A stretch of 40,387 nt of DNA from Shigella phage SFPH2. Shown here in pieces: positions 1-7,065 of this stretch. The position numbers and the translations under genes are program-made. Every line of letters starts with the position of its first letter. The first letter of the stretch is position 1. Under the pieces are notes generated by a model. The model worked only from the letters and a program-made list of their open reading frames with translations. It was not told the origin of the DNA and searched no databases. The stretch lies in sequence record MH464253; one strand, 5' to 3'.

Positions 1-909
1 GCGACCTTTAGCCCAGTACCCACCACCAACCACCCCGGTCCACGGCTTAGGTGGCACGACGCAGGGCTGGTAAACTGGGGCAATTCCTGCCAGAGAGAAA
101 CCACGCTGAGCCATCTTCTTGACCCAGAAGTCAGACAGGTGGACCATCTCAACGTCTGCCGCAGCGTTGCCTGCACCGTAGCGCTTAAGCTCGACCAGTT
201 GTGAGGACTGGATGACCAGCTCAAGCATCTTGATGCCTACGTGAACAGCCTCGGTCGGACTCCAAGTCCCCCACGCGTCAGCCAGTTGTCCCTGCTCAAG
301 CATAGACGCCTCGACTGCCTGCATGTAGGCCTTCTTGTAGCTTGCGCCAGCGCGTTTCTTCAGGTTCTCCGCGATGGTCTTCTTGAAGTGCTCCTGCTCC
401 TGCTCACGGATGCGACCAAAGCGGATTTCATCTTCCAGTGTGCGACCTATCGCGGATGCCATAGGAGTTATCGGAATGCCTTCAGGCTTGACCAGCTTGC
501 TGAGGATGACTTTCAGTATGATGACCGCAGCAGACTCCGCAGAGATTAGCAGAGAGCGGTCTTTGACAGCCTTCTCGTCAGTGCTCATCATGGTAAACGC
601 CACGCTTGGACGTGAGGTCGAGGACTTACCGTCCGGGCCTTCATGCCACTCACGCACAGCCTTAGCGATGGTCGGAACCAGTGTTTGCATCAGAGGTTTA
701 GCGACCTGATTGTCTGCCAGCTCCCCGCGCTCGGTCTGACGCTCAAGGTTCTTAATGAAACGTCGCTCACCTTCAGTGTATGCCTCATGCTCTAGCTGGA
801 GCTGTTTGACTGCGAGGTCTTGCCCGTAGTGGTCAGCCAGTACGTTGAAAGGTTCGATTGCATTCGACACATCAGAGAAGTCGTGTTTGTCAATTGAGAT
901 GACGCTCAT
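1..909 (-). CDS. gp1: DNA-directed RNA polymerase, N-terminal part (gene cut by window boundary; continues at 40387..38615)
   Basis: ATG at 909..907 with AAGGA 9 nt upstream; translation MSVISIDKHDFSD...FGRIREQEQEHFKK...PCVVPPKPWTGVVGGGYWAKGR is colinear with T7 RNAP N-terminus; frame runs off position 1 with a complete codon. Confidence 0.93.
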   Translation of the reverse strand, partial: MSVISIDKHDFSDVSNAIEPFNVLADHYGQDLAVKQLQLEHEAYTEGERRFIKNLERQTERGELADNQVAKPLMQTLVPTIAKAVREWHEGPDGKSSTSRPSVAFTMMSTDEKAVKDRSLLISAESAAVIILKVILSKLVKPEGIPITPMASAIGRTLEDEIRFGRIREQEQEHFKKTIAENLKKRAGASYKKAYMQAVEASMLEQGQLADAWGTWSPTEAVHVGIKMLELVIQSSQLVELKRYGAGNAAADVEMVHLSDFWVKKMAQRGFSLAGIAPVYQPCVVPPKPWTGVVGGGYWAKGR

Positions 910-3264: not shown

Positions 3265-3717
3265 TTACACCACCTCCCAGAACCGACCTTCAGCATCTTT
3301 CGTGAAGCATTCGCCCTTTGGTGCCTCGACTTGCTGGAATGCCCCGTTCAGACGTGTGGTCTTGTAGCCATCCAGACCTTTGCAGAACATCAGGCCAGCC
3401 GTGTGAGTCTGAGACTTGTAGACCATCACGCAGTCTTGCTCAAAGTCATTGCAGGCCAGCCGCGCAACGTTGATAGCCTGAGCTTTGGACTCACAGCGCA
3501 CACGATATGTTCTCTCCTCAGTGGCGACCTCTTGCCCTTCCTCGCGGTAGCATCCTGTAAGCCCAGTGCATTCGAGCACACCGTAGTAGTCTGGCTCAGC
3601 TTGTAGCAGTGCCTTAAGGTCTAACTGACGGCCCATGTTCACTATGTCTGACAGTCCAGCACGAGCGGCTGACACGAGCACATAGAAGACGTTAGCTGGT
3701 TCGTTAGTGTAAATCAT
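3265..3717 (-). CDS. gp0.3: S-adenosyl-L-methionine hydrolase/lyase (T3 gene 0.3-type SAMase, anti-restriction)
   Basis: MIYTNEPANVFYVLVSA...TGCYRE...VRC.SKAQAINVARLACN..EQDCVMVYKSQTHTAGL matches T3 SAMase as recalled, near-identical length (150 aa). Confidence 0.88.
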   Translation of the reverse strand: MIYTNEPANVFYVLVSAARAGLSDIVNMGRQLDLKALLQAEPDYYGVLECTGLTGCYREEGQEVATEERTYRVRCESKAQAINVARLACNDFEQDCVMVYKSQTHTAGLMFCKGLDGYKTTRLNGAFQQVEAPKGECFTKDAEGRFWEVV

Positions 3718-3931
3718 GATGTGTATCCTTTAAGTGTGAGTGATTATCATAAAGAGACCTGAGGCGCTCATCTTGAGCCTGACCCGCAGTAGCCAACAAG
3801 TCTCTTGAGTTAATCGCTTACTATCGGCGCACATTAAGAGTTATCCAGATTGTTAAAGAGCATTCGCTTGGCTGTCGTCGCCTCGCTAGCCTGTTTCAGT
3901 GTTAGGCTTCACTGTCGTTTCGATGTGGTTC

Positions 3932-3961
3932 ATACTACTTTAAGTCGTTACTGCTTGTCAA
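3932..3961 (-). promoter_or_regulatory. Candidate host sigma70 promoter (TTGACA-N18-TAGTAT), rightward/sense
   Basis: Hexamers read on minus strand upstream of the early genes. Confidence 0.3.
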
Positions 3962-4076
3962 CTACTTTCTTTCTGTCGGTTGCCTGTTTTTCGTATGTCT
4001 TACAGGCTGACTACTTAACCGGACCGACCCGGCGTCTTCACTATCCGGTTGTTGCCGTGTCGTGTTGACGGAAGCT

Positions 4077-4105
4077 ATTAAACCAAAAGTCAGACCTACT
4101 GTCAA
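4077..4105 (-). promoter_or_regulatory. Candidate host sigma70 early promoter (TTGACA-N17-TTTAAT), rightward/sense
   Basis: Perfect -35 and 17-bp spacer on minus strand, ~360 bp upstream of SAMase. Confidence 0.4.
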
Positions 4106-4168
4106 CAACTATTTATCATGGTAATTTATACAGTAGTCCAATGACTATATAATAACGACTACAGATGA

Positions 4169-4196
4169 TTGACTTTAAGTCTGGACTGTGGATAAT
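4169..4196 (+). promoter_or_regulatory. Candidate sigma70 promoter on the antisense strand (TTGACT-N16-GATAAT)
   Basis: TTGACTttaagtctggactgtgGATAAT on plus strand; closely resembles T7 A1 core (TTGACTtaaagtct...GATACT) but points opposite to all genes. Confidence 0.4.
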
Positions 4197-4199
4197 GAG

Positions 4200-4852
4200 A
4201 GTCCAGTTAGCAAGACACTAACTAATAACCCTAGTCAGCTATGGTCTCTGACTGCTAAACGGACCGGATGTGATAACCTGTGAGTCTAGACCTTAGGACT
4301 CTGATAAACTGAAGGTCGACATGGTGTCTATTGACTGTAGGTAGTGAGACTGTAGGTAGTCCCGTTACCAATGGATTGACTGTAGGTAGTGAGACTGAAG
4401 GTGATGACTCTAGGCTGATACAGATAGCGACTCAGGGACACAACATATAGTCCCGACCAATCGTCCCTACCACAAGATATAGGCCCTATCGGTCCAGACT
4501 TCGGGTCGACTTCGGGTCAAAGACTTGAGGTTTAGACCTTCGGTCTAGGGGTAGGGCCTTTGGTCGAGACTTAAAGAGGGCCTATGGGGAGACTTGAGGT
4601 TCTTGAACTGTGAGATGTGGTCTCAAACTTTTGGTCCAAAACTCATCGTCCCTACTGTAGGCCTCAGCCACTGTAGGTCAAGGACCGTAGGTCAGGCGAC
4701 ACTAGGGTAGACCAGTGAGTAGGATGACCCTAAGTGAGCTTCTCTTAAGGTGTTACCTAAAGTCCTTGACTACAGTAGCTAAGGTCAGTAGAGTAGCGTC
4801 AGCTATGAACTGACCTTAGGTCCGTCTTTCGTTGATTGTTACCATGATGGCG
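4200..4852. repeat. Repeat-rich non-coding terminal region (expected location of physical genome ends / terminal repeat / concatemer junction)
   Basis: No ORF of 60 codons or more on the coding strand; 22-bp perfect direct repeat TTGACTGTAGGTAGTGAGACTG at 4331-4352 and 4376-4397; recurring CTGTAGG, ATCGTCCCTAC, AGACTTGAGG, CTTCGGGTC motifs. Confidence 0.6.
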
Positions 4853-5011
4853 TTAATGACACTCAGACACCAGAGTACATACGAGAGTCTCGACCCACCC
4901 GACCCACTGACTTCCAGCAGTAACGCCAGCAGCAAGTAGAACAGCAGCAAGAAACCTGTATGTAGCTCTATTGGTCGCCAGAGCTTTAAGAACAGCTTTG
5001 GTCTTACCCAT
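4853..5011 (-). CDS. gp19.5: gp19.5-like small protein (52 aa)
   Basis: MGKTKAVLKALATNRATYRFLAAVLLAAGV... resembles T7 gp19.5 (..RVTYRFLVVLCAALGY..); AGGAGGT SD 7 nt upstream; lies downstream of the phiOR-position promoter. Confidence 0.65.
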   Translation of the reverse strand: MGKTKAVLKALATNRATYRFLAAVLLAAGVTAGSQWVGWVETLVCTLVSECH

Positions 5012-5185
5012 GCTACATACCTCCTGTCGCTTAGGGTCTACTTAAGTTATGAGGGTGTGATGATTACAATCACCCTCTCCATCGGTGCTAACCTTAGGTA
5101 AGAACTAAGGAGTCTGCCTCCTAAGGTCTTGCATAAAGTGTGCATATGCTTATTCATTGAGTCTTTACTATAAGTAACCGGGGGT

Positions 5186-5208
5186 CTTCCCTATAGTGAT
5201 AGTTAAGT
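5186..5208 (-). promoter_or_regulatory. Phage RNAP promoter (phiOR position): ACTTAACTATCACTATAGGGAAG
   Basis: Full consensus match between terminase large subunit and gene 19.5. Confidence 0.85.
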
Positions 5209-5301
5209 CCCTTTCCCTTTAGAATCATTAAATTACGAGAGATACCTAACGCACTACTTACTGCTTATACATGCAGATTTCATGCGTAGGTATTCATTAG
5301 G

Positions 5302-7065
5302 TTAGTGGAACTTGACGTAGGACCCTAAGCCTAAGTCATCATCTGTATTGAACTGGACCCGGACCCCATTGTCCCAATAGTCAGTCTCGATGGACTTAAA
5401 GCCTTTCCGAGGGTCTTCCATCTGTTCCTCAAGCCACTCTTCTGTTACTTCACGCTGTCCCTTGACGGCATCCTTCGCCATAGACTCTACGAAGAACTGT
5501 ACACCGATAGCCAGAGCATCAAGTCGGTCGTCATGAGCCAAGGCTCCACGTTCACGGCTGATACGGGTCATCTGGTAGAACAGAGAGTAGATAGGGTTAC
5601 GGACACCATCCTTATCGGCAGCAGTCTGGTAGTCAGACACAATGGTCGAGGAGTTCACGATGAGTCGGTGAGACCCCATGATAGGCTCCAGAACGTCGCA
5701 GATGCGCAGCTCCTTCTGACCCTTACTCTTGACCTCGGTAACTGCTGCCGGGTGAATACGGGCCGCTACAGGCTTGAAGAGTTCGAGATACATACCGTCA
5801 CCGAAGTTACCTTCAATCACGTACTCGTTGACCTTCCACTTACGACCAATCTTAGCCAGAGCCTCCAGCGTAGAGTCCTCATAGCCACCACGCATACCAC
5901 CCGCTTCCATCACGAAGATGTAGCCGTTGAGCTGGTACAGAACCGCATACCCGGTCTCATCCTTACCTCGACCACTTGGGTCAATGACCAGAATCTTCTG
6001 GGTGTACGAACTGAAGGCAGAACCTACAGTCTGATACGTATGGTAGGAATCGCCCATGAGTCCCACGTTAGGAACGTCATCACGCTTGTTCTGAAGGTTC
6101 GGCAGCCACTGGTATACCATAGGGCTAGACTCAGGGTCCAAGTCCGCTACGATAAGGTCACGCAGCTTCAGAGGGTATTTCTCGGCGTCCCCTAGGTTGG
6201 GGTTCAGCATGAACTGTAGGGCGAAGCCCGCCTTACCATAAGACAGCTCACGCTCCTTCAGGTCCTCATCGTCGAAGCGAACCTCATCGGTCGGTCTCCA
6301 GTAGTATCCCTCAGGGTCAGACTCCAGCTCGGCCTGAAGCATAGGAGCCAGACGGTCTCCGTAAGACTTCCAGTCCTTCTCATCACGTGGGTAGCGGGCA
6401 GGCCAGATGGTAGTTGAGTAACCACGACCCTCAAGCTGTCGATACAGGGTCATCTCGGTCTGAGGAGTACCCAGATAGATAACCGTACCACCCGGCTTCA
6501 GGATTGCGTCGAACTCTTTCACCAGCTCTGACAGTCTGTCACGTGCCGCCTGAGTAGCGGAGTTACCGGGGACCTCTACGTCATCGGCAATCAGGATGTC
6601 AGCACGGCTACCAGTTAACTGACCAGTGATACCAACGGACTTAACCGAGGGAGAGTGGTCAGGCTTGGCAGGCCCTACGTCAAAGCTGATTACTGCGTCT
6701 CGCTGCCCCTGCTTAGGCTTCAACTCTTGGAGCTGAGGCATGAGGTCGATGATACGCTTGATGAAGATTGAGTTCGCATCGGCTCGTTCCTTTGAGGCCG
6801 ACACAATCATGAACTTCAAGTCCGGGTTATTCCATAGCTTCCAGACCACGAAGGCACACGTAATGAAGGACTTCCCGATACCACGGAATGCCTGCAAGAT
6901 GAAGCGCCTGTTGTCCCCAGCCGATAGCTTCTTCGCCATGTCAATCTGACAGCGAGTCGGAACAGGAAGTGACAGAGCTTTCCACAGAACGAACAGGAAG
7001 AACACGAAGTCTGACTTCATACGGGCAGTCATAAGCGCCTGACGCGCTGCTAAGTCTTGACTCAA
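5302..7065 (-). CDS. gp19: Terminase large subunit (DNA maturase B)
   Basis: 587 aa; Walker A-like GIGKS, colinear with T7 gp19 (586 aa). Confidence 0.95.

What the first reader, a model, noticed from the sequence alone, without database searches (positions are those of the whole stretch)
4169..4196. Near-consensus sigma70 promoter pointing against all genes in the terminal region
TTGACT-N16-GATAAT on the plus strand is stronger than either minus-strand candidate (TTGACA-N17-TTTAAT at 4105..4077, TTGACA-N18-TAGTAT at 3961..3932) and closely resembles the T7 A1 core, yet it would transcribe leftward toward the genome end and the repeat region. I recall T7 having a minor leftward promoter (A0) near its left end; this may be its counterpart, possibly linked to replication or packaging at the terminus.
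Basis: partly seen in the sequence, partly recalled or inferred. Interest (0 to 1): 0.5.

Follow-up and report, generated by a model that had tools for sequence, protein, structure and literature searches.

The report
Leftward host-type promoter beside phage A1
A sequence that looks like a bacterial promoter points backwards, towards the nearby end of this T7-like phage genome; it is kept in about 67 related phages, resembles the minor leftward promoter A0 known in T7 and T3, is untested, and can be lost in nature.

Summary
The window is a whole Kayfunavirus (T7-like) genome, reverse-complemented and circularly permuted. TTGACT-N16-GATAAT is at 4169-4196 on the + strand, as reported. It points away from all genes, towards the physical left end at 4615, about 412 nt away.

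On sequence alone it is unremarkable. It ranks tenth in the window on a crude promoter score, no better than the two rightward early promoters. A site this good appears in 8% of shuffles of the 510-nt left-end region.

Comparison gives better support. In 28 distinct relatives:
- the -35 is invariant in 27;
- the -10 keeps A2, A5 and T6 while positions 1, 3 and 4 and the adjacent spacer vary (GATAAT, TAGTAT, TATTAT).

It is not the T7 A0 ortholog. A0 starts at nt 224 in T7 and about nt 115 in T3, and its spacer is unrelated. This site resembles T7 A1 and lies back to back with the A1 equivalent. It sits on a ~145-bp module that ENT2, K1F, MopsHU1 and EcoDS1 lack.

I found no ORF, Rfam match or stable fold downstream. 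My verdict: a probable minor early leftward host promoter, an A0 analogue of unknown role. Interest is low.

The parts
4169..4196 (+). Leftward sigma70-type promoter core, here called PL1: -35 TTGACT (4169-4174), 16-nt spacer, -10 GATAAT (4191-4196)
   Evidence: In 28 distinct relatives the -35 is invariant in 27. The -10 keeps A2 in 27 of 28 and A5 and T6 in all 28, while positions 1, 3 and 4 vary.
4201..4205 (+). Predicted transcription start, 5-9 nt after the -10. The run-off RNA to the left end would be about 410-415 nt.
   Evidence: Inferred from the usual spacing between the -10 and the start. Left end placed at 4615.
4171..4181 (+). Palindrome GACTTTAAGTC overlapping the -35. The same arms overlap the -35 of T7 A1 (GACTTAAAGTC) and the start is shared with T3 A1.
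   Evidence: Positions 4166, 4168-4172, 4174-4177 and 4179 are invariant in the relatives.
4106..4168 (.). 63-bp stretch, 71% A+T, between the two back-to-back -35 hexamers. In relatives its length is only 53, 63 or 73 bp.
4077..4105 (-). Rightward early promoter, the A1 equivalent: TTGACA-17-TTTAAT preceded by TGG (extended -10)
   Evidence: Homologous to the stretch annotated 'host RNAP promoter' at 469-505 in the curated EcoDS1 record.
3932..3961 (-). Second rightward early promoter, A3-like: TTGACA-18-TAGTAT, followed by GAACCACATC here (GTACCACATC in Ro45lw)
4125..4153 (+). Second leftward match, TTTATA-17-TATAAT. Not conserved as a promoter: most relatives have TATAAG or TATAAA.
4205..4223 (+). 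Palindrome or hairpin AGTTAG-N7-CTAACT at the predicted 5' end of the leftward RNA. Positions 4209 and 4219 change together in relatives.
   Evidence: 14 distinct sequences have A-T and 13 have G-C, with none mixed, but there are only two haplotypes.
4169..4315 (.). Non-coding module of about 145 bp that carries PL1 and the first ~110 nt of its transcript. ENT2, K1F, MopsHU1 and EcoDS1 lack it.
   Evidence: The left boundary is approximate.
4330..4420 (.). Array of CCTACAGTC-type short repeats between PL1 and the terminal repeat, transcribed by PL1
4426..4615 (-). Terminal repeat, one collapsed copy. The physical left end is at 4615.
   Evidence: aligned to records that start at the genome end. 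Ro45lw has a 190-bp repeat and SH4 a 190/191-bp repeat.
4419..4427 (-). CTATCTGTA at the inner edge of the terminal repeat. This is the motif annotated 'concatemeric junction' in EcoDS1 and BA14.

Best explanation
PL1 (4169-4196, + strand) is most likely a working but minor promoter for the host sigma70 RNA polymerase.

It lies within the first ~450 bp of the end that enters the cell first in T7, back to back with the A1-equivalent early promoter. Host polymerase would therefore bind it at the same time as the rightward early promoters. It would transcribe about 410 nt of non-coding DNA: the short-repeat array, the concatemer-junction motif and the terminal repeat. It would then run off the left end.

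Once the gp2-type inhibitor is made, the promoter should go silent. It is thus an analogue of the leftward A0 promoters of T7 and T3. By sequence, however, it is an A1-type promoter in inverted orientation, carried on a lineage-specific ~145-bp module.

Shown:
- the motif, its orientation and its distance from the end;
- its pattern of conservation;
- its absence from some relatives;
- the lack of a gene downstream.

Inferred:
- that polymerase binds and fires there;
- when it does so;
- that the RNA runs off the end.

Unknown: what the RNA, or the act of transcription, is for. The same is true of A0 in T7, as far as I know.
For: - The motif is present and correctly oriented.
- The same crude score that finds it recovers exactly the four annotated host promoters (A0-A3) in the first 1.4 kb of T7 and the first 1.5 kb of T3. 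The only miss is T3's weak B promoter. There are no extra hits.
- Six of the ten best sites in the 40-kb window fall in 3932-4794.
- In 28 distinct relatives the variation fits what a sigma70 promoter tolerates. The -35 varies in 1 of 28. A2 of the -10 varies in 1 of 28, and A5 and T6 never. Positions 1, 3 and 4 of the -10 vary in 5-6 sequences. The -10-proximal half of the spacer is the most variable stretch nearby (mean 5.4 minority sequences per column, against 2.0 for the region).
- The neighbouring A1-like promoter, curated as a host promoter in EcoDS1, shows the same pattern.
- Where the -10 block is replaced (L017, L020, L022, L023, L035: TAGTAT; L002: TATTAT), a -10-like hexamer stays exactly 16 nt from the -35.
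- In those same variants the overlapping inverted repeat CTGGACT...AGTCCAG (4181-4206) is lost. That argues for a promoter rather than a hairpin.
- Leftward sigma70-type sites recur in left ends of other T7-group lineages: T7, T3, K1F/EcoDS1, Berlinvirus and Przondovirus-like contigs.
- A gp2 homologue is present (PF16857, E = 1.4e-20).
Against: - There are no experimental data for this phage or any relative. The papers I found on Kayfunavirus phages (Ro45lw, SH4) report no experimental mapping of host promoters.
- The single-sequence match is near chance: 8% of shuffles of the region do as well.
- The whole 4040-4330 stretch is well conserved (153 of 291 columns invariant). The conserved block around the -35 (4166-4181) is wider than the hexamer, so part of the conservation may serve something else.
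- The module is missing in ENT2, K1F, MopsHU1 and EcoDS1, and degraded in ST15 (TTGATT / GCTAAT). It is therefore dispensable.
- Nothing recognisable lies downstream. There is no ATG-started ORF of 20 codons or more after the start and no Rfam match. The folding energy is no better than shuffles, z = -0.27.
Confidence: 0.5

Rival explanations
1. The site only looks like a promoter and is not used. The left end of these phages is full of TTGAC- and TA...T-containing repeat motifs. The match is conserved only because the surrounding non-coding DNA is conserved among close relatives.
For: - 8% of shuffles of the region give a site at least as good.
- Other promoter-like hits nearby clearly come from repeat units. 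The -10 TACAGT of 4681..4654 is part of the CCTACAGT repeat.
- The neighbouring match PL2 (4125-4153) scores higher, yet most relatives lose its -7 T.
- More than half the columns in the region are invariant.
- Natural relatives do without the module.
Against: - Variation is sorted by position in the way a promoter predicts. A2, A5, T6 and the -35 are kept, while the spacer and -10 positions 1, 3 and 4 vary.
- A replaced -10 block still gives TAGTAT or TATTAT at the same 16-nt spacing.
- The same score identifies the experimentally known T7 promoters with comparable values. T7 A0 scores 10.75 and T7 A1 10.63.
Confidence: 0.3
2. What is conserved is the palindrome block (GACTTTAAGTC and its flanks, 4166-4181), possibly with the second palindrome at 4205-4223. 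It would be a DNA site for a phage or host protein, or a signal for replication, recombination or DNA maturation. On this reading the promoter likeness is incidental.
For: - The invariant block is wider than the -35 hexamer.
- The same palindrome lies at a similar distance from the left end in T7 (462-475) and EcoDS1 (377-387), whatever the promoter orientation.
- The two halves of the 4205-4223 palindrome change together.
- Indels next to it come only in 10-bp steps.
Against: - In T7 the palindrome is simply part of the A1 promoter, so it needs no other role.
- This reading does not explain the retention of a -10 hexamer at a fixed 16 nt.
- The module is dispensable in relatives that package and replicate normally.
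- No known binding site or RNA family matched.
Confidence: 0.12
3. PL1 drives a small leftward gene. Some annotators of related genomes have called 30-40-codon ORFs on that strand.
For: Leftward CDS calls overlap the site in IMM-002, ST57, ST35 and vB_EholP_HHH.
Against: - Those ORFs begin upstream of the predicted start. In IMM-002 the start codon is at 470 and the promoter spans 466-439.
- In the window the frame is a 31-codon GTG ORF that starts inside the promoter spacer, upstream of the -10 (4188-4283).
- Downstream of 4203 there is no ATG-started ORF of 20 codons or more. The only ones are TTG-started and lie in repeat DNA.
Confidence: 0.03

Closest known systems
T7 promoter A0 (leftward E. 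coli promoter, start at nt 224) and T3 promoter A0 (-35 at 145-150, -10 at 126-131)
   Same: - A sigma70-type promoter in the non-coding left end of a T7-group genome, pointing at the left end and away from all genes.
- The -35 is TTGACT in all three.
- No gene lies downstream and no function is known.

   Different: - Position: the start is about 412 nt from the end, against 224 in T7 and about 115 in T3, where it lies inside the terminal repeat.
- It sits next to A1 rather than in or beside the repeat array.
- The spacer is unrelated: shuffles reach the observed similarity 736 and 842 times in 2000.
- The -10 is better (GATAAT, against TAGGCT and TATCCT).
- It is confined to about 67 records of one Kayfunavirus sub-lineage.
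T7 promoter A1 (TTGACT-17-GATACT) and T3 A1 (TTGACTTTAAGT...)
   Same: - Same -35 hexamer, embedded in the same palindrome arms (GACTT.AAGTC).
- The first 12 nt are identical to T3 A1.
- The spacer is closest to T7 A1 (score 10 over 16 against 17 nt; 1 of 2000 shuffles does as well).
- The -10 differs at one base.
- The distance from the left end is similar: 435-447 here, 462-475 in T7.

   Different: - The orientation is inverted.
- The spacer is 16 nt rather than 17.
- The true A1 equivalent by homology is the rightward 4105..4077 promoter.
- Much of the spacer similarity comes from the palindrome, a motif common in these left ends. Common descent, such as an inverted copy, is therefore possible but not shown.
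Curated host-polymerase promoters of the Kayfunavirus EcoDS1 (469-505, 609-647, 764-800)
   Same: Same genus and the same left-end layout: terminal repeat, concatemer-junction motif, repeat array, then host promoters. The first EcoDS1 promoter is homologous to the window's 4105..4077 site.
   Different: - EcoDS1 has three rightward promoters and no PL1 module.
- No leftward promoter is annotated there.
- Its best leftward matches are at 98..69 and 257..229.

Membership tests
Bacterial sigma70 (housekeeping) promoter | -35 and -10 hexamers close to TTGACA and TATAAT, 16-18 nt apart, with A at -10 position 2 and T at position 6 | tested here: met
   TTGACT-16-GATAAT, 10 of 12 matches. The crude score is 11.22, within the range of the annotated T7 and T3 promoters, 10.6-13.6.
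Bacterial sigma70 (housekeeping) promoter | The match is better than chance in its context | tested here: inconclusive
   166 of 2000 shuffles of the 510-nt region reach the score. Two such sites on the strand occur in 10 of 2000.
Bacterial sigma70 (housekeeping) promoter | Selective constraint on the contact positions across relatives | tested here: met
   The -35 varies in 1 of 28 sequences. A2 varies in 1 of 28, and A5 and T6 in none. The spacer and -10 positions 1, 3 and 4 vary. A replaced -10 stays promoter-like at the same spacing.
Bacterial sigma70 (housekeeping) promoter | RNA polymerase holoenzyme binds and starts transcription there | not testable with these tools
   Needs in vitro transcription, footprinting or 5'-end mapping. 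I found no such data.
T7-group leftward promoter A0 | A host promoter in the left-end non-coding region that points at the left end | tested here: met
   + strand site at 4169-4196, with the left end at 4615.
T7-group leftward promoter A0 | Positional or sequence orthology with T7 A0 (start at 224, in the repeat array) or T3 A0 (inside the terminal repeat) | tested here: not met
   The start is about 412 nt from the end. The spacer is unrelated to either A0. The repeat-array TTGACT motifs at 4331 and 4376 lack a -10. EcoDS1 does hold a T7-A0-like site at 257..229.
T7-group A1-type early promoter | TTGACT within the GACTT.AAGTC palindrome, with a GATA.T -10 | tested here: met
T7-group A1-type early promoter | Rightward orientation, driving the early genes (0.3 onward) | tested here: not met
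   The site is on the strand opposite to every gene.
Phage RNA polymerase promoter (phiOL type) | Match to the phage's own promoter consensus (AACTATCACTATAGGGAAGA here) | tested here: not met
   There are eight matches with up to 3 mismatches in the window, none between 4077 and 4615.

The most novel reading that the evidence does not exclude
PL1 and the A1-equivalent promoter may form one unit: two A1-type promoters in inverted orientation, held on a fixed face of the helix. The gap between their -35 hexamers is only 53, 63 or 73 bp in 28 distinct relatives, through three separate 10-bp indels. Two polymerases loaded back to back at the entering DNA end would then help each other. Possible routes are shared upstream contacts, DNA bending, or the negative supercoiling that builds up between diverging polymerases. 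On this reading the leftward promoter serves to speed capture of host polymerase and the start of genome entry, not to make an RNA.
Probability: 0.12. Interest if true: 0.45.

Novelty: new member of a known kind. Interest (0 to 1): 0.25.

Why it matters
T7-group phages depend on host polymerase binding to the first few hundred base pairs that enter the cell. Leftward promoters there have been known since the T7 sequence was published (A0), but to my knowledge no role has been established for them.

This case adds one point. Such promoters recur in several lineages at non-homologous places. Here the promoter appears to be an A1-type promoter turned round, on an optional module. That pattern suggests repeated gain rather than one inherited element.

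Natural pairs of phages with and without the module, such as Ro45lw and ENT2, could be used to ask what leftward transcription does. For annotation there is a practical lesson: the small ORFs called over this site in related genomes are almost certainly spurious.

Tried and rejected
- Phage-polymerase promoter (phiOL) at this place: no match.
- Known RNA family in 3600-5300: none at E up to 1.
- Structured leader RNA: z = -0.27 on the + strand and -0.71 on the - strand.
- Small leftward gene: no credible ORF, and the CDS calls in relatives start upstream of the promoter.
- Hairpin CTGGACT...AGTCCAG (4181-4206) as the conserved feature: it is lost in the TAGTAT and TATTAT variants.
- PL2 (4125-4153) as the real leftward promoter: most relatives lack its -7 T.
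- A0 orthology: rejected on position and on sequence.
- More relatives from public collections: viral contigs gave only 5-11 loci and metagenome contigs 2. The comparison therefore rests mostly on GenBank phage records.
- Literature on A0, or on host promoters in Kayfunavirus: almost nothing is held. One T7 engineering preprint mentions A0 in passing. The K1F genome paper is not held.

Full report
**What the window is.** All long ORFs lie on the - strand. A 912-codon frame ending ...SDFAFA, the C-terminus typical of T7-type RNA polymerases, runs across the window's end and start. The window is therefore a complete, circularly permuted, reverse-complemented genome. The left-end region matches Kayfunavirus phages at 86-96% (SFP21A, EP1, Ro45lw, GW1, SH4 and others). 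In phage orientation the order is:
- terminase, 7065..5302;
- gene 19.5, 5011..4853;
- terminal repeat;
- short-repeat array;
- host promoters;
- gene 0.3, an S-adenosylmethionine lyase, 3717..3265 (PF23780).

**Where the physical end is.** The sequence TCTCACAGTTCAAGAACC... at 4615 (- strand) equals the first bases of five records deposited from the genome end. One of them is SH4, whose ends were determined by run-off sequencing (PMC4925675). With the 190-bp repeat of Ro45lw, the terminal repeat is 4426-4615. The motif CTATCTGTA follows at 4427..4419. The curated EcoDS1 and BA14 records label that motif 'concatemeric junction'.

**The observation.** TTGACT-16-GATAAT is at 4169-4196 on the + strand. 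The site points at the left end, and the predicted start (4201-4205) is about 412 nt from it.

I scored promoters with a crude position-weight matrix built from textbook base frequencies (my own knowledge), with a spacer penalty. The score is rough, but it recovers exactly the four annotated host promoters A0-A3 in the first 1.4 kb of T7 and the first 1.5 kb of T3. Its only miss is T3's weak B promoter, and it gives no extra hits.

On this score:
- the site gets 11.22 and ranks tenth in the window;
- the 4105 site gets 11.26 and the 3961 site 12.63, so the site is not stronger than they are;
- six of the ten best sites lie in 3932-4794, so the genome ends are enriched in such matches;
- the single match is still weak, because 166 of 2000 dinucleotide shuffles of the 510-nt left-end strand do as well.

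**Comparative evidence.** I collected the homologous stretch from 33 loci, giving 28 distinct sequences (alignments). The variation looks like this:
- The -35 is invariant in 27 of 28.
- In the -10, A2 is kept in 27 and A5 and T6 in all 28. Positions 1, 3 and 4 vary in 5-6 sequences.
- The -10-proximal half of the spacer is the most variable stretch nearby.
- In six sequences the block is replaced, yet TAGTAT or TATTAT sits at the same 16-nt distance. The overlapping inverted repeat (4181-4206) is lost in those sequences.
- The A1-like promoter shows the same pattern of constraint.
- One relative, ST15, has a degraded site (TTGATT / GCTAAT).
- The second leftward match in the window (4125-4153) loses its -7 T in most relatives, so I discount it.

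**Caveats.** The region as a whole is well conserved, and the invariant block around the -35 is wider than the hexamer.

**Relation to A0 and A1.** T7 A0 (TTGACT-17-TAGGCT) starts at nt 224, in the repeat array. T3 A0 lies inside the terminal repeat. The present site is 412 nt from the end and 63 bp from the A1-like -35.

Its spacer is unrelated to either A0. It is closest to T7 A1: 1 of 2000 shuffles does as well, though the shared palindrome GACTT.AAGTC supplies most of the matches. Its first 12 nt equal T3 A1. The rightward site at 4105 is the homologue of the first curated host promoter of EcoDS1.

The site is therefore an A0 analogue by direction and an A1-type promoter by sequence. It may be an inverted copy, but that is not shown.

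**Distribution.** 218 phage records share the A1-like region, but only 67 have the PL1 stretch. ENT2 has the same flanks but lacks about 145 bp (roughly 4169-4315). The breakpoint lies at the edge of the -35. K1F, MopsHU1 and EcoDS1 also lack the stretch. The element is therefore optional.

Leftward sigma70-type matches occur elsewhere in the group, at other positions:
- K1F and EcoDS1 at 98..69;
- EcoDS1 at 257..229, with the T7 A0 hexamers at the T7 A0 position;
- the Berlinvirus contig L011 and BA14, inside the terminal repeat;
- a Przondovirus-like contig, about 406 nt from the end.

ENT2, MopsHU1 and two other contigs have none.

**What lies downstream.** Between 4203 and 4615 there is no ATG-started ORF of 20 codons or more, no Rfam match and no unusual folding energy. 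There is no phage-polymerase promoter between the end and A1. The phage encodes a gp2-type inhibitor of host polymerase (PF16857), so any activity should be limited to the early phase (inference).

**Conclusion.** This is a probable but unproven minor early host promoter that makes a non-coding run-off RNA of about 410 nt towards the left end. It belongs to the known kind represented by A0, at a new position and with a different likely origin. Its role is unknown, and a link to replication or packaging has no support here.

The most interesting loose end is the spacing between the two back-to-back promoters. It takes only the values 53, 63 and 73 bp across relatives, which hints at a constraint on helical phase.

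Noticed in passing
window 4106-4168, and the same stretch in L002-L044: The gap between the leftward -35 and the A1-like -35 is 53 bp (4 sequences), 63 bp (18) or 73 bp (6) in 28 distinct relatives. Three different indel sites produce this, each exactly 10 bp. Indels elsewhere in 4040-4340 are 1-4 bp. This suggests a constraint on helical phase, or a 10-bp repeat mechanism.
   Followed up: partly
window 4766-4794 (+) and 4681..4654 (-): These sites lie in the right-end region, between gene 19.5 and the terminal repeat. TTGACT-17-TAGAGT points back into genes 19.5 and 19. It is the best sigma70 match in the whole window, and all 25 distinct relatives keep the site (one has TTGACC as the -35). 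Its divergent partner TTGACC-16-TACAGT is built from the CCTACAGT repeat unit and is missing in 8 relatives.
   Followed up: partly
window 4205-4223 (+): The palindrome AGTTAG-N7-CTAACT lies at the predicted 5' end of the leftward RNA. A4209/T4219 is replaced by G/C together (14 against 13 distinct sequences, none mixed). There are only two haplotypes, so this may be a single event.
   Followed up: partly
window 4419-4427 (-) and 4161-4166 (-): CTATCTGTA lies at the inner edge of the terminal repeat. It is the motif annotated 'concatemeric junction' in EcoDS1 and BA14, and it resembles the T7 polymerase pause signal ATCTGTT (my own knowledge). A second ATCTGT lies just right of the leftward -35 and is tandemly duplicated in L002, L020 and L035.
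   Followed up: no
window 4077-4105 (-): The A1-equivalent promoter has T, not A, at -10 position 2 (TTTAAT). It is preceded by TGG, an extended -10. One search's scan skipped it for that reason.
   Followed up: no
window 1 / 40387: The RNA polymerase gene (a 912-codon frame ending SDFAFA) crosses the window ends. The terminal repeat is present once. The sequence is therefore a circularised assembly, not the packaged linear form.
   Followed up: yes
L047 (EcoDS1) 257..229: There is an unannotated leftward TTGACT-17-TAGGCT here. It has the same hexamers and the same distance from the left end as T7 promoter A0.
   Followed up: no
L019 (IMM-002) 351-470; L018 (ST57) 748-864; L039 (ST35) 994-1110: Related records carry short leftward CDS calls over the promoter. 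One is named 'glycine cleavage system protein H'. They start upstream of the predicted transcript and are not conserved as ORFs, so they are probably annotation artefacts.
   Followed up: partly
L012 1794..1765; L011 1431..1403; L046 (BA14) 97..69: Near-consensus leftward sigma70 sites occur in the left ends of a Przondovirus-like contig (TTGACA-18-TATAGT, next to its phiOL-like promoter, about 406 nt from the end) and of Berlinvirus genomes (inside the terminal repeat). None is annotated.
   Followed up: partly
window 3720-3930 (-): This phage has only two strong rightward host promoters before gene 0.3. T7, T3 and EcoDS1 have three and BA14 has four.
   Followed up: no
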